DNA from: a virus
IMG/VR virus record: IMGVR_UViG_3300036851_000400
Coordinates: 4,028-68,027 of that record
Direction: 5' to 3' (one strand)
Length of the DNA: 64,000 bases
The position numbers and the translations under genes were made by a program. Below, in pieces: positions 7,657-11,829 of the stretch. The notes beneath the pieces were generated by a model. The model saw only the letters and a program-made list of their open reading frames with translations. It was not told where the DNA came from and did not search any database. How positions within the stretch are numbered: the first letter of the stretch is position 1; the number at the start of each line of letters is the position of its first letter.

Positions 7657-8038
7657 CCGGCGCTGTGCCACCTGCGCCTTCCGTCCTGGGACGGAGGCCT
7701 CCAGGTCAGAGCTGACCCTGGTCAAGGCGCAGCTCTGCCTCATCTCGGGGACGGTCTTCCACTGCCACGAAGCTCCAGGATGGGAGCCCTGCGCTGGATA
7801 TCTGGCCGCCCTTCCTGCGCACCAGAATGAGCCCGAATGGCGCCAAGACTTCGCGCTCGAGATGTTGGATCTGATCGAAGAGGCGGAGCGAGCTGGAAGC
7901 GGCTGGACGGAGCAGCGAACCATCGAATTTATCCGGGCTGCGGTCGATCGCGTAGACGTTCGCCACGGGGGCGCCGCCGGCTCTCTGTCTACAGGGGGAG
8001 GGGAGCGTGGCTTACAGGGAGGAGGGCGCCATGGCTGA
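7649..8038 (+). CDS. Cys-rich hypothetical protein
   Basis: CATCAFRPG...FHCH...PCAGY. Confidence 0.6.
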   Translation: MPDRRCATCAFRPGTEASRSELTLVKAQLCLISGTVFHCHEAPGWEPCAGYLAALPAHQNEPEWRQDFALEMLDLIEEAERAGSGWTEQRTIEFIRAAVDRVDVRHGGAAGSLSTGGGERGLQGGGRHG

Positions 8039-8555
8039 GCCCATTCTATCCGAAGAGACGCTCGCGAGATTCTGGGCCAAGGTAGACAAAGTTCCGGGCG
8101 GTTGCTGGCTCTGGACAGCGTCCGTCCGCAACAAGGGATACGGCGCTTTCGCCTACGTTTCCAACGGTCGCACCGTACAAGAGCGAGCCCACCGCATCTC
8201 TTGGAAACTCCGGTTCGGGTTCATCCCGCAGGGCCTCTGCGTCCTGCATGACTGCCCAGGTGGCGATAACCCCCGTTGCGTCAACCCGGAGCATTTGTTC
8301 CTTGGAACCAAAGCCGACAACAACCGCGATATGCACCGCAAGGGCCGAAGCGTTCCGGGTGGGACCTACGGGCGGGCGGGATATGAGCGCGGCGATCGGC
8401 ACCACGCTGCCAAGCTGACGGCAGAGGGCGTGCGTTCGATCCGGGCTGCCCACTCTGCCGGCGAATCACTGGGAAGCATTTCGCGGCGCCTCAACCTGGC
8501 CATCGGCCACGTTCACCGAATCGTCCACCGGAAGGCATGGAAACATGTCGACTGA
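8031..8555 (+). CDS. HNH homing endonuclease with C-terminal HTH
   Basis: RFWAKVDK..GCWLWT...AHRISW...VLH.C...DNPRCVNPEHLFLGTKADNNRDM...AKLT. Confidence 0.9.
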   Translation: MAEPILSEETLARFWAKVDKVPGGCWLWTASVRNKGYGAFAYVSNGRTVQERAHRISWKLRFGFIPQGLCVLHDCPGGDNPRCVNPEHLFLGTKADNNRDMHRKGRSVPGGTYGRAGYERGDRHHAAKLTAEGVRSIRAAHSAGESLGSISRRLNLAIGHVHRIVHRKAWKHVD

Positions 8556-8856
8556 TCTCAGAAAGGAGGTGTCAGAACCATGGTAACGAAATCGCAAGCT
8601 CTACGCGCTCCGTTTCCATGGTTCTGACGGGCTCGGCGGTAAGTCCAGAGTCGCGCATCTCGTCTGGGAGCGGTTCGGGCCGGTCCGGAATTTCGTTGAG
8701 CCGTTCTTCGGGAGCGGGGCAGTCCTCCTGGGGCGGCCGGGCGAGCCGTCGATCGAGACGGTCAACGATGCGGACGCCTACTTAAGTTGCTTCTGGCGGT
8801 CTGTAGCTGCGGATCCCGATGCAGTTGCTCACTACGCTGACTGGCCAGTAAACGAG

Positions 8857-9912
8857 TGCATTCCGGCCGGAACGCTGATAGCAACGCCGTCCGGCTCAGT
8901 GCCGGTAGAGGACATCCGGGCCGGCATGACGGTTTTCGGATGGAGTGCCGGAGAAGGAATCGTTCCGACCAGCGTTGTCGAGATCCGCCAAAGCGTCGCC
9001 ACCGACTTCGTTCGGATAGGCTCGTTGCGGCTGACGGCGAACCACCCCGTGTGGACCACGGAGAGCGGCTATATAGAGGCTGGAAGCCTTTCGGGAGGAA
9101 TGCATGTTGCGACCCTGGGAAATCTACAGTCTGTCCGATCCGCGCACAGGGGAGATCCGATATATCGGGATCACATTCCGGGGCAGGCAGCGTTACAACG
9201 AGCATTTGTCGCGCGCCGCAACCGGCGGGCGAACGCATCGGGATTGCTGGGTTCGCTCGCTAGCCTCAGAGGGTTTGCGTCCGGCGTATTCGGTTCTCGA
9301 GGTTGGCAACGGCGAGGGATGGCAGGAGCGGGAGCGATCCTGGATTGCCAAGCACCGCGAGGATGGTCGACTCACGAACCGCACGGACGGCGGGGAAGGC
9401 CTGCCTGGTTACGTTCCATCGCCAGAGCTGCGGCGCAAATGGTCGAAAGCGCGCCGCGGCGTGCCGTACCGGCCCTGGCGAAAGCCGCCAATGCTCGGCA
9501 GGCGGCAATCGCCAGAGGCGCGGGAGAAGATTCGCCAAGCTGGCACCGGGCGAACGCACAGCGAAGCGACCAGAGCGAGGTTGTCAGCTCGCCGCAAAGG
9601 GCGACCGCTTCCGACATGGCAACGCGAGATGCTGGCCGCCTCACACCGCGGGAAACCCCTAACAGAGGCGCACCGTCAGAAGATCGCGGCCACGACGACC
9701 AACAGGAAGCCAGTTCGCTGCGTCGAGAGCGGGCAGATCTTTCCATCCATCACCGCCGCCTCGCGAGCCCTGGGTGTGACGGAGGCCTCAGTGAGTCAGG
9801 CGATCAGGAAGGGTTGCCGCTGCAAAGGGAATCACCTACAACTCCAGTAGCCGTATTCAATTTCCAGACGCTGAGCGGGAACTACTTCGCGGGCGGGATT
9901 TTGGTCCACAAC
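8857..9912 (+). mobile_element. Intein (352 aa) in the methyltransferase
   Basis: Block A CIPAGTLIATPSG, block B LRLTANHPVWT, blocks F/G VFNFQTLSGNYFAGGILVHN, +1 Cys; removal gives contiguous WPVNE-CDLHARH. Confidence 0.92.
9104..9850 (+). CDS. GIY-YIG homing endonuclease with NUMOD3-like repeats and C-terminal HTH, nested in the +1 frame of the intein
   Basis: EIYSLSDPRTGEIRYIGIT...RYNEH...ERERSWI...LTNRTDGGEG; HSEATRARLS/LTEAHRQKI repeats; KPVRCVESGQIFPSITAASRALG; own GGAGG RBS at 9094-9098. Confidence 0.88.
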   Translation: MLRPWEIYSLSDPRTGEIRYIGITFRGRQRYNEHLSRAATGGRTHRDCWVRSLASEGLRPAYSVLEVGNGEGWQERERSWIAKHREDGRLTNRTDGGEGLPGYVPSPELRRKWSKARRGVPYRPWRKPPMLGRRQSPEAREKIRQAGTGRTHSEATRARLSARRKGRPLPTWQREMLAASHRGKPLTEAHRQKIAATTTNRKPVRCVESGQIFPSITAASRALGVTEASVSQAIRKGCRCKGNHLQLQ

Positions 9913-11334
9913 TGCGACCTCCATGCCCGCCATCGCTGGCTCGTTGAGACAGCCCGAGAGCGCGTACAGCAGTGCAAGACAGACCCGGACTTCTACGACG
10001 CCAAGGTCGCGGGCTGGTGGGTGTGGGGGCAGTGCTTGTGGATCGGGTCGGGGTGGTGCGCGAGGCCGGAGTGGACCGGCCGGATGCCGGCGATTGCAGG
10101 CCGGGATGGCGGGAGAGGGGCCCACGCGAAATCCCGCAACGTCAACCCCCGAGCCGGCGACACGCTCAACAACGAGCACCGGCGCCTTGACCTCGGAAGC
10201 GATGGCGACGGGAACGGGATCATCCGGACGCAGCGCAAGAGCGACCCGGATTGGGAGCAGCGCCCCCATCTCGGGAGCGATGGCCAGGGACAGGGGATCA
10301 TCCGCAAGCGCCCGATGCTCACGCACCACGGCGGCAACGTGGGCGTCCACAAGCCGAGCCTCGCCATGGCCATAAAGCGGCCAGTACTGGCGCACAGCGA
10401 GGGAGGCCGCGGCGTCATGCGGCAGGCGCACCAAGTACCGAGCTTGCGCGGAGATTCTGGCGCAGCCGGGCAGGGAATCCACGCCCCTGGCTTCCAGAGG
10501 CGGTCGCAGCAGATCCCCGTCCTTGGCTGTGCGCACGGGAGTGGGCAAGGCGTATCGGCGCACGCAATTCATCGATCCTCTGGCGGCCTGCAGGCGTACA
10601 TGCGCGCCCTCTCGGATCGGCTCCGCAGAGTGCGGGTCTGCTGCGGAGACTTCGAACGCATCCTCGGGCCCGCGGTCACGACCTGCATCGGAATGACGGG
10701 CGTCTTCCTGGACCCGCCTTACGACACCGATGCTCGAGCCATCTGCTACTCCCATGATGGCGAGGAAGCCGACACGGGCAAGTCGGTCTGGTGGCGAGCT
10801 TACCGCTGGGCCGTCGAGCATGGCGAGGACCCGCTCCTCCGGATCGCTCTCTGTGGATACGAGCACCCGGACGCCATCTTCCCTGAATCCTGGGAATGCA
10901 TCCCCTGGAAGGCGTCTGGCGGCTACGGACGGAGCGCGAGAGGGAAGGCCAACGCTCGCAGGGAGAGGATTTGGTTCTCCCCGGGATGCTTGAAGCCCGC
11001 CCGCTTGCCTCTGTTCGATGAGTCTGCCCTCCCTCTTACCTCAGCAGTACAGGGGGGAGGCACAGGCGTCTCGGCGGCCGGGTCCGCGAGATCTCGATTG
11101 CGGGGGCCGCCGGCACCGTCTCCAAACGATGATTTGAAGCAGGCGGCCCACGAGGCTGCGGAGCTTCTGGCCGATCCCGAGGCCGGCGAAGTTGAGCGGC
11201 TGAATGCGGCGGACGCGCTGCGCCGAGCGGCCGGCCTGCCGGCGGAGCGAGAAGACGACGATGATGAGCCCTACGACGACGGCGAACCGGACTTCACCGC
11301 GGACCCTCTGGATGAAGAGTTCTGAGGAGCCACC

Positions 11335-11829
11335 GTGACCGAGCAGCTCTCCATGCCCTCCCAGGACCTCCGTTCCCTCTGGCCCTCCCTCTCTTCAAGG
11401 GAGAAGGATGCGCGAGTAGCGGAAGTACTCGGATGGCGGATTCGGAAAATACCGACCTTGGATAGCGAGTGGTGGGACTGCCATGCGCCGCCCCCGGAGC
11501 CGCCCGCGTTTCGCGTGACGCTTCGATTCGACCGGGAACGCACGCGCCTGATTTCGGAAGTGAGGCCCGATGGCCTTCTGCTGCCTCACTACTCCACGTC
11601 CTGGGAGCACGCCGGACCCCTCCTGGAAGCCCTCTCGGCCGAAGGCTGGGGTTGGACCCTCTGCGCGAAGGCCGACGGCCTCCAGCCTGACGTAGCGCTC
11701 TTCTCGCCAGGACCGGAGCAGGACGATCATCCGTGGGTCTTTGAAGACGCCTCGGTCCTTTCGGCGGTCTGCCTTGCGTTCGTGGTAGCAAAGACAGAGG
11801 GGCTGTCTCTGAATGGAGGGGAGGCGTGA
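11335..11829 (+). CDS. Phage ABA-sandwich-like protein
   Basis: DARVAEVLGW...PHYSTSWEHAGPLLEAL...AVCLAFV. Confidence 0.6.
   Translation: MTEQLSMPSQDLRSLWPSLSSREKDARVAEVLGWRIRKIPTLDSEWWDCHAPPPEPPAFRVTLRFDRERTRLISEVRPDGLLLPHYSTSWEHAGPLLEALSAEGWGWTLCAKADGLQPDVALFSPGPEQDDHPWVFEDASVLSAVCLAFVVAKTEGLSLNGGEA

What the first reader, a model, noticed from the sequence alone, without database searches (positions are those of the whole stretch)
8857..9912. Intein whose homing endonuclease is a separate gene overprinted in the +1 frame
Seen: a canonical intein (Cys1, TANH block B, HN/Cys+1) whose central ~250 codons have no LAGLIDADG or HNH motif and read as Arg/Ala-rich filler, yet have no stop. The +1 frame of the same DNA (9104-9850) encodes a complete GIY-YIG nuclease with NUMOD3-like repeats and an HTH, with its own GGAGG RBS and a stop just before block F. 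Established: intein endonucleases are normally in-frame, mostly LAGLIDADG. Inference: a dual-coding selfish element in which splicing removes the filler while the nuclease is made independently, uncoupling homing from host-gene expression. I recall reports of hidden out-of-frame nucleases in phage methylase insertions, so novelty needs a literature check.
Basis: partly seen in the sequence, partly recalled or inferred. Interest (0 to 1): 0.88.

Follow-up and report, generated by a model that had tools for sequence, protein, structure and literature searches.

The report
Intein hiding an out-of-frame nuclease gene

Summary
Window 8857-9912 is a 352-codon class-1 intein (Cys1, T60/H63 block B, HN/Cys+1) in a D12 adenine methyltransferase gene. 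Residues 91-318 are Ala/Arg-rich and predicted disordered. The +1 frame (9104-9850) encodes an I-TevI-like GIY-YIG/NUMOD3 nuclease.

This is not an error. In 22 of 23 loci with a full-length or near-full-length relative of the nuclease, the intein frame is open across the nuclease ORF. The third frame is open in none. This includes genomes of 36-42% GC.

In 18 of 18 non-redundant nested loci, no nuclease codon ends in T where that would make a stop in the intein frame. Elsewhere 19-43% do. The nuclease frame is under purifying selection. The filler is no more conserved than the closed frame.

Twelve of 18 relatives carry an extended -10 promoter motif exactly 6 nt before the nuclease ATG, which suggests a leaderless mRNA. 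The window has a Shine-Dalgarno site instead.

At the same methylase site there are empty alleles, mini-inteins, and one intein with a +1-frame DUF559 nuclease.

Out-of-frame intein nucleases are already published for other nuclease families. My searches found no GIY-YIG case. This is a new variant of a known kind. Splicing, expression and cleavage are untested.

The parts
8580..8627 (+). Start of the methyltransferase gene. An AAGGAGG site precedes the ATG at 8580. The gene is read in frame 3 for 15 codons and then hits TGA at 8625-8627. The rest of the gene continues in frame 1, so there is a frame break here.
   Evidence: Sequence. Relatives read PFPWFGGKS without a break. An independent assembly of what is probably the same sample has a contig break at 8615-8623, so the break may be an assembly artefact.
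8587..8856 (+). N-extein of a D12-class N6-adenine DNA methyltransferase, in frame 1. It ends ...ADWPVNE.
   Evidence: Pfam PF02086, 29.1 bits against a cut-off of 22. Alignment by eye with intein-less relatives.
8857..9126 (+). N-terminal splicing half of the intein, residues 1-90. It holds Cys1 and block B (T60, H63).
   Evidence: Invariant columns C1, T60 and H63 in 14 inteins. AlphaFold2 pLDDT 72-92 with beta strands. Foldseek matches Mtu RecA, DnaB and gp41-1 inteins at probability 1.00.
9127..9810 (+). Intein-frame filler, residues 91-318. It is Ala/Arg/Ser/Gly-rich, predicted disordered, unconserved and free of stops.
   Evidence: pLDDT 24-33 and no secondary structure. Composition. 26% identity among relatives, equal to the closed frame. 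Stop avoidance.
9811..9912 (+). C-terminal splicing half of the intein, residues 319-352 (blocks F and G). It ends HN and is followed by Cys+1 at 9913-9915.
   Evidence: Invariant N335, T338, N342, Y343, H351 and N352. pLDDT 75-91.
9093..9099 (+). Shine-Dalgarno-like GGGAGGA, 4 nt before the nuclease ATG. It is made of the intein's Gly-Gly codons.
   Evidence: Sequence. No sigma-70-like promoter was found in 8400-10000.
9104..9850 (+). Nuclease gene in the +1 frame, 248 aa plus TAG. Layout: GIY-YIG catalytic domain (aa 5-86, 9116-9361); four helical NUMOD3-like repeats (about aa 105-197, 9416-9694); C-terminal DNA-binding module (aa 197-247, 9692-9844).
   Evidence: Pfam. 73 further protein clusters at 45-68% identity. 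AlphaFold2 mean pLDDT 84. Foldseek matches the I-TevI catalytic domain 1LN0/1MK0 at TM 0.70-0.73, plus I-HmuI and the I-TevI DNA-binding domain. The profile hits 8B6E at E=1.3e-6 for aa 197-247.
9913..11325 (+). C-extein of the methyltransferase. It starts CDLHARH, holds the DPPY motif, and includes the stop codon.
   Evidence: Translation. 7521 homologues, mostly 350-480 aa and carrying PF02086.

Best explanation
This is a mobile intein whose homing endonuclease is a separate gene nested in the +1 frame.

1. The methyltransferase mRNA is translated straight through the insert. The two halves of the Hint domain fold around a roughly 228-residue disordered loop. They splice the methyltransferase together (inferred).

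2. The loop sequence has no function of its own. It is whatever the +1-frame gene dictates. Selection only forbids nuclease codons that end in T before AAN, AGN or GAN codons, because these would stop the methylase precursor (shown comparatively).

3. The GIY-YIG/NUMOD3 nuclease is made independently from its own start codon. In the window this would use an internal Shine-Dalgarno site on the methylase mRNA. In most relatives it would use an internal sigma-70-type promoter whose -10 box ends 6 nt before the ATG, giving a leaderless mRNA (inferred from motifs).

4. The nuclease cuts methylase alleles that lack the intein. In the six intein-less relatives read, the empty site reads WPV(N/S)E-(A/P/T)-DLHARH or a close variant. 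Repair copies in the intein together with the nuclease gene and flanking extein (inferred). This is supported by a patchy distribution and one recent-transfer footprint.

5. The element most likely arose when a free-standing nuclease gene invaded a mini-intein at the usual endonuclease insertion point.
For: Conserved architecture:
- In 22 of 23 loci with a full-length or near-full-length nuclease relative, the intein frame is open over the whole nuclease ORF. The third frame is open in 0 of 23. The exception is L108, a free-standing gene.
- All 22 sit at the same methylase site...P(V/C/A)(N/S/L)(E/H)/C ... HN/CDL.
- They include L102 (36% GC) and L104, L105 and L107 (38-42% GC).
- 0 of 67 more distant nuclease relatives are nested.

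Stop avoidance:
- 0 T-ending codons at 37-57 risk sites in 18 of 18 non-redundant nested loci, against 19-43% T elsewhere.
- The intein frame stays open in 0-7 of 5000 codon shuffles.
- L108 has 6 such stops.

Selection: (position entropy, pN/pS, 53% versus 26% identity).

Folds:
- Nuclease model pLDDT 84, matching the I-TevI catalytic domain.
- In the intein-frame model, residues 1-90 and 320-352 are confident and match solved inteins. Residues 91-319 have pLDDT around 25.

Expression signals:
- TGnTAnnnT followed by exactly 6 nt and an ATG in the nuclease frame occurs in 12 of 18 loci. Background is 0.64 motifs per kb.
- The bases are conserved while the intein-frame amino acids vary.
- The promoter scan calls the same sites in all 3 loci tried: 11/12, 9/12 and 9/12 matches, each with TG.

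Mobility:
- The window's C-extein is 59-63% identical to the six best intein-less alleles (P0103-P0106, P0108, P0112). It is 30-44% identical to the C-exteins of intein-bearing alleles where the alignment is comparable.
- L097 and L098 share a block of about 1450 nt at 99-100% identity. It covers the N-extein, the intein and about 60 nt beyond. The flanks are 51-81% identical.
- Splicing-domain and nuclease divergences correlate (Mantel r=0.46; 38 of 5000 permutations reach it).

Alleles at the same site:
- Empty alleles.
- Mini-inteins of 135-137 aa, P0239 and P0246.
- An intein with a +1-frame DUF559 nuclease, with 0 of 48 risk sites T-ending.
Against: - There is no expression, splicing or cleavage data. 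No RNA run holds the stretch.
- In the window itself the methylase gene is broken 15 codons after its ATG. Frame 1 has no ATG, GTG or TTG before 8899. If that break is real, this copy makes no precursor at all.
- An independent assembly has a contig break at exactly that place, so the break cannot be settled either way.
- Pfam Hint hits are below their cut-offs (23.8 against 28.4; 19.9 against 27). The GIY-YIG hit is only 1 bit above its cut-off.
- The promoter reading rests on consensus motifs in uncultured phages of unknown hosts. The window, L102, L104 and L105 lack the motif. L103 and L106 have only a TATTAT hexamer 6 nt before a GTG.
- The loci are related, so counts of loci are not independent events. 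L002 and L003 are identical. L097, L098 and L099 share an identical intein. L104 and L107 are 99% identical.
- The L097/L098 block could reflect general phage mosaicism rather than homing.
Confidence: 0.8

Rival explanations
1. Artefact. The nuclease is really fused in frame with the intein, and two compensating indel errors in this assembly create the apparent +1 ORF.
For: The window is a metagenome assembly. It has one suspicious frame break nearby at 8625, which coincides with a contig break in another assembly.
Against: - The same +1 offset is seen in 22 of 22 nested loci from many samples and assemblers.
- Each has its own start codon a few codons after a stop in that frame.
- The Logan contig covering 8615-10050 is identical to the window, though it is probably the same sample.
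- No longer fused protein was found (weak evidence).
Confidence: 0.01
2. The nuclease is not made independently. It is made by programmed +1 ribosomal frameshifting from the methylase-intein precursor, giving an N-extein/N-intein/nuclease fusion.
For: Both ORFs are on one strand, and the window has no internal promoter. Rfam gives a frameshift-element hit at 9472-9506, but at E=0.64 and 18.7 bits against a cut-off of 50. That is chance level, and it lies in the middle of the ORF.
Against: - The nuclease frame is closed 9 codons upstream of its ATG in the window.
- In the 12 relatives with the -10 motif it is closed 2-16 codons upstream of the chosen ATG, and further upstream in L102-L107.
- A start codon is conserved 4-5 codons (11 in L096) before the W-x-I/V-Y motif where that motif is present, with a Shine-Dalgarno or -10 motif in front.
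- I saw no slippery site by eye.
Confidence: 0.04
3. The nuclease gene is a separate parasite of the intein. It homes into mini-intein alleles, cutting mini-intein DNA rather than the empty methylase site. It does not serve intein mobility.
For: - Mini-inteins of 135-137 aa exist at the same site.
- Two unrelated nuclease genes (GIY-YIG and DUF559) occupy the same point of the same intein lineage in the same frame.
- Most cassettes bring their own promoter.
Against: - Nuclease and splicing-domain divergences correlate.
- The identical L097/L098 block spans the whole intein plus the N-extein, not just the nuclease cassette.
- P0239 keeps a remnant resembling the 3' end of the nuclease overlap, by eye. 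This suggests deletion from a full element.
Confidence: 0.12
4. The insert is a group I intron carrying a GIY-YIG ORF, as in T4 td/I-TevI. The intein-like features are coincidental.
For: GIY-YIG/NUMOD3 nucleases are typical of phage group I introns and free-standing genes (phage hits). One relative is named 'group I intron endonuclease' by its source.
Against: - No Rfam intron match at E<=1 in 8400-10200.
- The host frame is kept open by selection, which an intron does not need.
- Hint-fold halves with all splicing residues are conserved.
Confidence: 0.01
5. In this particular phage the element is a recent relic. The methylase is a pseudogene because of the N-terminal frame break, and the intein is never translated. 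Only the nuclease gene, if anything, is still expressed.
For: - Frame break at 8625, with no start codon in frame 1 before 8899.
- The window has lost the promoter segment that 12 of 18 loci (all of them relatives) carry.
Against: - 912 codons stay open in frame 1.
- The break coincides with a contig break in a second assembly, so it may be a joining error.
- All nuclease catalytic columns are intact in the window.
Confidence: 0.15

Closest known systems
Actinobacteriophage inteins with out-of-frame or antisense homing endonucleases (Gosselin, Arsenault and Gogarten, bioRxiv 10.1101/2025.01.02.630785). [quoted passage not shown]
   Same: - A contiguous intein whose in-frame middle part forms no recognisable structure.
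- A nuclease encoded in another frame between the splicing blocks.
- A proposed origin by invasion of an intein by a free-standing nuclease gene.
- Signs of continuing horizontal transfer.
   Different: - Their nucleases are an EndoVII-like enzyme in 'frame 3', antisense LAGLIDADG and antisense VSR-like.
- Their hosts are DNA polymerase, minor capsid, terminase and thymidylate synthase.
- Here the nuclease is GIY-YIG/NUMOD3 in frame +1, the host is a D12 methylase, and most relatives carry a promoter-like motif placed for a leaderless start.
- Their supplementary tables were not open to me.
Cyanobacterial dnaX intein with a +2-frame LAGLIDADG nuclease (Phillips, DeSimone and Gogarten, bioRxiv 10.64898/2026.09.14.751524, search passages read). 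It traces the idea back to Gorbalenya 1998, which I did not see.
   Same: - Overlapping frames, with low omega in the nuclease frame and raised omega in the intein frame.
- A disordered in-frame middle.
- Co-existing mini-intein and intein-free alleles.
- A secondary-invasion hypothesis.
   Different: It is a cellular gene, with a LAGLIDADG nuclease at the other frame offset.
ShiLan domain: a hidden out-of-frame HNH endonuclease inserted in a mycobacteriophage DNA methylase (Arsenault et al., Genes 2025, PMC11855218). I read the abstract, the Discussion and search passages.
   Same: - A phage methylase host gene.
- An insertion read through in frame without stops.
- A nuclease in another frame.
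- Leaderless initiation proposed for its translation.
   Different: ShiLan has no detectable splicing domain and is thought to stay in the protein. Here the nuclease gene is flanked by a complete Hint domain. The nuclease family also differs (HNH versus GIY-YIG).
Fractured genes: split inteins with a free-standing GIY-YIG or Vsr-like nuclease gene between the halves (Dassa et al., NAR 2009, PMC2677866, search passages read).
   Same: GIY-YIG/NUMOD and Vsr-like nuclease genes sit at the endonuclease insertion point of an intein. The 3' end of the nuclease gene overlaps the downstream intein part. The model is a free-standing nuclease invading a mini-intein.
   Different: There the host gene is broken into two genes and trans-spliced. 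Here the intein ORF stays contiguous through stop avoidance. [quoted passage not shown]
I-TevI and the Seg-type free-standing GIY-YIG endonucleases of phages
   Same: - An N-terminal GIY-YIG catalytic domain. Foldseek TM is 0.70-0.73 to 1LN0/1MK0.
- A linker with NUMOD3 repeats and a C-terminal helix-turn-helix-like DNA-binding module.
- tblastn hits at 27-34% identity to annotated phage homing endonucleases.
   Different: Those genes lie in group I introns or between genes, not inside a protein-coding frame that must stay open.

Membership tests
Intein (Hint domain, class 1) | Cys/Ser at position 1, block B Thr-x-x-His, C-terminal His-Asn, and Cys/Ser/Thr at +1 | tested here: met
   C1, T60, H63, H351 and N352 are invariant in 14 aligned inteins. 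Cys+1 is at 9913-9915.
Intein (Hint domain, class 1) | Hint fold formed by the N- and C-terminal parts | tested here: met
   AlphaFold2 pLDDT 72-92 for residues 1-90 and 75-91 for residues 320-352. Foldseek probability 1.00 to Mtu RecA, DnaB, gp41-1 and BIL domains, E from 3e-7 to 1e-3. Pfam Hint_2 and Vint are only below cut-off.
Intein (Hint domain, class 1) | In frame with the host gene, and absent from some alleles at a conserved site | tested here: met
   The frame is open from 8587 to 11322. Intein-less alleles read WPVNE-A-DLHARH or a close variant.
Intein (Hint domain, class 1) | Protein splicing activity | not testable with these tools
   This needs expression of the precursor.
GIY-YIG homing endonuclease (I-TevI-like) | GIY and YIG motifs plus conserved Arg, His, Glu and Asn of the catalytic domain | tested here: met
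   - Pfam PF01541 scores 23.6 bits against a cut-off of 22.6.
- Columns E77 and N92 are invariant. Y8, Y20, R26, R30 and H34 are at least 90% conserved in 25 sequences.
- The mapping of these columns to the I-TevI catalytic residues is from recall, not from a residue-level alignment.
GIY-YIG homing endonuclease (I-TevI-like) | Catalytic-domain fold plus modular DNA-binding tail (NUMOD, helix-turn-helix) | tested here: met
   Foldseek to 1LN0/1MK0 at TM 0.70-0.73 over about 90 residues, and to 1U3E and 1I3J. NUMOD3 at E=1.6e-10. The C-terminal module matches 8B6E at E=1.3e-6.
GIY-YIG homing endonuclease (I-TevI-like) | Site-specific cleavage of the element-free allele | not testable with these tools
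   This needs a cleavage assay.
Non-canonical intein with out-of-frame nuclease (as in 10.1101/2025.01.02.630785) | Nuclease ORF in another frame between the splicing blocks, while the intein frame stays open | tested here: met
   22 of 23 loci. Stop avoidance in 18 of 18.
Non-canonical intein with out-of-frame nuclease (as in 10.1101/2025.01.02.630785) | Purifying selection on the nuclease frame and none on the in-frame middle | tested here: met
   pN/pS 0.45 against 1.28, and identity 53% against 26% (the closed frame is 25.6%).
Non-canonical intein with out-of-frame nuclease (as in 10.1101/2025.01.02.630785) | Distribution that indicates horizontal spread | tested here: inconclusive
   Extein and intein identities disagree, and L097 and L098 share an identical block. 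No rooted tree test was made.
Group I intron with a nuclease ORF | Group I ribozyme core | tested here: not met
   No Rfam intron family at E<=1 in 8400-10200.
Fractured gene / split intein (Dassa 2009) | Host gene divided into two ORFs by the nuclease gene | tested here: not met
   A single open frame runs through the insert in the window and in 21 relatives.

The most novel reading that the evidence does not exclude
One Hint scaffold at one methylase site acts as a reusable landing pad. Unrelated free-standing nuclease cassettes (GIY-YIG in about 20 loci, DUF559/Vsr-like in L170) have entered at the same point and in the same +1 frame. Most bring a promoter positioned to start a leaderless mRNA at their own ATG.

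The +1 offset may be favoured because every stop in the host frame then has the form NNT|AA, NNT|AG or NNT|GA. Such stops can be removed by synonymous changes in the nuclease gene alone. A newly arrived cassette could therefore be 'opened' for read-through without harming the nuclease.

If so, this would be a general and predictable route from mini-intein to full intein. It would also be the first contiguous intein served by a GIY-YIG enzyme.
Probability: 0.45. Interest if true: 0.72.

Novelty: new variant of a known kind. Interest (0 to 1): 0.62.

Why it matters
- It adds GIY-YIG to the short list of nucleases that serve contiguous inteins. A 2009 survey stated that this pairing was not known.

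- The evidence for dual coding does not depend on high GC. The host frame stays open even in genomes of 36-42% GC.

- One site shows the whole proposed life cycle: empty site, mini-intein, and intein with either of two unrelated nested nuclease genes. This makes the 'splicing first, nuclease invades later' model directly testable.

- The promoter-like motif placed 6 nt before the nuclease ATG gives a concrete answer, testable by 5'-end mapping, to the open question of how hidden nucleases are expressed.

- Gene callers split this locus into a 248-aa ORF and a 474-aa C-extein fragment. Such inteins are therefore systematically missed in annotation.

Tried and rejected
Searches that found nothing useful:
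- A blastn search of 8500-11400 against phage records gave one short hit in a methylase gene. No isolated phage carries this element.
- A single-protein scan of viral contigs found no relative. The profile scan did.
- A search for longer proteins holding the nuclease in frame found none. The tool itself calls this weak evidence.
- No sigma-70-like promoter was found in window 8400-10000.
- The Rfam scan gave only a chance-level frameshift-element hit (E=0.64).

Sequencing runs:
- No RNA holder was listed for the stretch, so nothing can be said on expression.
- The only run is a DNA run that may be the source sample. Its contigs agree with the window from 8615 to 10050, but this is not independent support.

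Ideas rejected, as set out under rival explanations:
- Compensating sequencing errors.
- A group I intron.
- A function for the filler peptide.

Not done:
- A rooted phylogenetic test of transfer.
- Site-wise codon models for overlapping genes. I used only Nei-Gojobori proportions, which are biased in overlaps and saturated at this divergence.
- Any analysis of the DNA behind the mini-intein proteins.
- Reading the supplementary tables of the cited preprints.

Literature searches behind the statement 'no GIY-YIG nuclease nested in a contiguous intein in print'. These cover the Creative Commons part of PubMed Central and bioRxiv only.
Full report
WHAT IS THERE

The window is most of a 68-kb virus record that is estimated 94% complete, with about 64% GC.

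A D12-class N6-adenine DNA methyltransferase gene starts at ATG 8580 behind an AAGGAGG site. It ends at 11325. After the codons for ...ADWPVNE, a 352-codon intein runs from 8857 to 9912:
- Cys1 is at 8857.
- Block B reads LTANHPVWT.
- The C-terminus reads ...ILVHN.
- Cys+1 is at 9913-9915.

The intein frame has no stop. Pfam sees only weak Hint matches at its first 68 residues and nothing in the middle. The middle, residues 91-318, is 17% Ala, 15% Arg, 10.5% Ser and 10% Gly.

The +1 frame holds an ORF from 9104 to 9850 (248 aa). It matches NUMOD3 (E=1.6e-10) and GIY-YIG (23.6 bits, cut-off 22.6). It matches annotated phage homing endonucleases at 27-34% identity. GGGAGGA lies 4 nt before its ATG. 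Its TAG lies 5 nt before the first block F codon.

IS IT REAL OR AN ERROR?

The nuclease has 73 further protein clusters at 45-68% identity. Nearly all are 232-272 aa, and all were called as separate proteins. A search for longer fused forms found none, which is weak evidence.

I fetched DNA for relatives from viral, genome and metagenome contig collections. I examined 23 loci holding a full-length or near-full-length relative, the window included:
- In 22 of 23, the frame one base behind the nuclease frame is open across the whole nuclease ORF.
- The other frame is open in 0 of 23.
- The exception, L108 (42% identity), is a free-standing gene among phage structural genes.

In all 22, the long ORF is the same methylase, interrupted at the same place by a homologous intein.

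Four of the loci have only 36-42% GC (L102, L104, L105, L107). A 250-codon open alternative frame cannot be a by-product of base composition there.

Among 67 more distant relatives of the nuclease, none is nested in a spanning ORF.

The loci are not all independent. L002 and L003 are identical. L097, L098 and L099 share an identical intein. L104 and L107 are 99% identical. I dropped these duplicates before the counts below.

SELECTION

A stop in the intein frame arises only where a nuclease codon ending in T precedes a codon starting AA, AG or GA.
- In 18 of 18 non-redundant nested loci, none of the 37-57 such sites has a T. At other sites 19-43% of comparable codons end in T.
- Shuffling synonymous codons within each ORF leaves the intein frame open in 0-7 of 5000 trials.
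- L108 has 6 stops.

Across 19 aligned sequences:
- Variability is concentrated at the third position of the nuclease frame (0.87, 0.77 and 1.54 bits).
- Mean amino-acid identity is 53% in the nuclease frame.
- It is 26% in the intein-frame filler and 25.6% in the closed third frame.
- Mean pN/pS is 0.45 in the nuclease frame and 1.28 in the intein frame.

These simple estimators are biased for overlapping genes and saturated at this divergence. The contrast between frames is still unambiguous.

Within the window alone, the GC-by-position profile of the exteins is carried by the nuclease frame in the overlap.

STRUCTURES

The nuclease model has mean pLDDT 84. Its layout is a GIY-YIG-type beta/alpha domain, four helical repeats and a small C-terminal module.

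Foldseek matches:
- The I-TevI catalytic domain, at TM 0.70-0.73 relative to the target.
- I-HmuI.
- The I-TevI DNA-binding domain.

The C-terminal 50 residues match a small DNA-binding protein, 8B6E, by profile at E=1.3e-6. The columns that I take, from recall, to correspond to the I-TevI catalytic residues are conserved. E77 and N92 are invariant. Y8, Y20, R26, R30 and H34 are at least 90% conserved.

The intein-frame product was folded with 14 relatives:
- It is confident only at residues 1-90 and 320-352.
- Residues 91-319 have pLDDT around 25 and no secondary structure.
- The confident parts match solved inteins at probability 1.00: Mtu RecA, DnaB, gp41-1 and a bacterial intein-like domain.

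The last ten or so nuclease codons overlap a modelled beta strand of the intein (GLPLQRE). Both frames are conserved there.

HOW THE NUCLEASE MAY BE EXPRESSED

In 12 of 18 non-redundant loci, TGnTAnnnT is followed by exactly 6 nt and then the nuclease ATG. The same motif occurs at 0.64 per kb elsewhere in these loci.
- L103 and L106 have a TATTAT hexamer 6 nt before a GTG.
- L104 and L105 have GGAG before the start.
- L102 and the window have no -10 motif.

Aligned on the start codon, the bases T, G, T, A and the final T are conserved. The intein-frame amino acids they encode vary (L/V, Q/Y/K/E, Y/S/L/C). A TTGAC-like -35 sits 17-18 nt upstream.

The promoter scanner calls these sites in all three loci I tried, each with the TG:
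- L093: 11 of 12 matches.
- L002: 9 of 12 matches.
- L096: 9 of 12 matches.

A -10 box ending 6 nt before the ATG would place the transcript start at or next to the A. That would give a leaderless mRNA. This is inference from motifs, and the hosts are unknown.

The window lacks the roughly 19-codon segment that holds this promoter. Its ATG follows the intein's Gly-Gly-Met codons directly, and those codons supply the Shine-Dalgarno-like GGGAGGA.

MOBILITY AND LIFE CYCLE

The C-extein has 7521 homologues. The best 120 listed are mostly 350-480 aa. Of eight that I read:
- Six are intein-less. Their site reads WPV(N/S)E-(A/P/T)-DLHARH or a close variant.
- Two are empty at this site but carry a different in-frame intein elsewhere.

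The window's C-extein is 59-63% identical to its six closest intein-less alleles. Where the alignment is comparable, it is 30-44% identical to the C-exteins of other intein-bearing alleles. The nucleases, by contrast, are 46-64% identical.

L097 and L098 share about 1450 nt at 99-100% identity. The block covers the N-extein, the intein and about 60 nt of C-extein. The flanks are 51-81% identical. This is the footprint expected of recent homing with co-conversion, though general mosaicism is not excluded.

Divergence of the splicing domain and of the nuclease are correlated (Mantel r=0.46; 38 of 5000 permutations reach it). This fits travel as a unit.

An exhaustive HMMER search with the intein-frame product found 459 representatives. 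Of the 150 listed, 25 carry the methylase junction motifs. Among those where both junctions matched my patterns:
- Nine have inteins of 359-378 aa.
- Two (P0239 and P0246) have mini-inteins of 135-137 aa.

One further member, P0249 (locus L170), has a 346-aa intein with a different filler. Its +1 frame holds a 253-aa ORF that matches DUF559, the Vsr-like PD-(D/E)xK domain, at E=1.2e-12. It shows the same stop avoidance: 0 of 48 risk sites end in T, against 51 of 153 elsewhere, and 0 of 5000 shuffles stay open. Both cassettes begin just after the same strand of the Hint domain.

COMPARISON WITH WHAT IS KNOWN

The general architecture is published.
- The 2025 preprint on actinobacteriophage inteins describes antisense LAGLIDADG, antisense VSR-like and 'frame 3' EndoVII-like nucleases. 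They occur in inteins of four host proteins, none of them a methylase.
- A 2026 preprint describes a +2-frame LAGLIDADG gene in the cyanobacterial dnaX intein, with the same frame-dependent selection.
- A 2025 paper describes a hidden HNH gene in a phage methylase without any splicing domain.
- Dassa et al. 2009 found GIY-YIG and Vsr-like genes between the halves of split inteins. They stated that these two types were not known in inteins.

Six full-text searches found no report of a GIY-YIG gene nested in a contiguous intein.

I therefore rate this a new variant of a known kind. The new features are:
- A new nuclease family for inteins.
- A new host gene.
- A sense +1-frame DUF559 sister element.
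- A specific, testable expression signal.

CAVEATS

- Nothing here shows splicing, translation or cleavage.
- In the window itself the methylase reads in frame 3 for 15 codons and then meets TGA at 8625. The rest is in frame 1 with no start codon before 8899.
- Relatives have no break there.
- A second assembly of what is probably the same sample ends one contig at 8623 and starts the next at 8615.
- The break may therefore be a joining error, or it may be a real recent lesion. If it is real, this copy makes no precursor.

Noticed in passing
window 8580-8660: The methyltransferase gene changes frame 15 codons after its ATG. TGA at 8625-8627 stops frame 3, and the gene continues in frame 1. Relatives read PFPWFGGKS without a break. 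An independent assembly of the probable source sample has a contig break at 8615-8623, with only 9 nt of overlap between the two contigs. This may be an assembly error or a real frameshift.
   Followed up: partly
window 8007-8555 (+): A 182-aa ORF with an HNH_3 endonuclease domain (Pfam E=1.8e-8) ends 25 nt before the methylase start. It is a second, free-standing putative homing endonuclease next to the same gene.
   Followed up: no
L170 1696-2733 (intein) and 1964-2725 (nested ORF): The same methylase site and intein lineage (55% identity over the N-terminal splicing part) carries a DUF559/Vsr-like nuclease ORF instead of GIY-YIG. It is also in the +1 frame, with full stop avoidance. Its TAG lies 8 nt before the intein's end, so it overlaps the whole C-terminal splicing region.
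   Followed up: yes
L101 (first intein, upstream of 2197); proteins P0194 and P0201: Some methylases of this family carry another intein at a different site (...VND..(D/N)G?/C ... SHN/C(Y/N)...). It has an in-frame middle holding a LAGLIDADG-like motif, by eye. L101 has both inteins in one gene.
   Followed up: no
window about 10100-10650, and the C-exteins of L002, L082, L097-L099: The middle of the methylase is a variable-number array of short Gly-rich repeats, of the type (L)PHLG-x-x-G-x-G-(I/V)-x-R-(K/Q). Copy number differs greatly between relatives. The window's C-extein gets no Pfam hit by itself.
   Followed up: no
window 9901-11325: The public protein collection holds this locus as a 248-aa ORF (P0002) and a 474-aa ORF starting at TTG 9901 (P0102). 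The gene caller cut off the C-extein and missed the intein. Many relatives of the nuclease lie on contigs of only 1-2 kb.
   Followed up: partly
proteins P0239, P0246, P0248: These are mini-inteins of about 135-140 aa at the same methylase site. P0239 keeps a short stretch resembling the 3' end of the nuclease/intein overlap (...SLQQR...), by eye. This suggests it arose by deletion of the nuclease gene.
   Followed up: partly
L108 2492-3118: The closest non-nested relative of the nuclease (42% identity) is a free-standing gene between phage structural-type genes. It has 6 stops in the frame that is open in the nested clade.
   Followed up: partly
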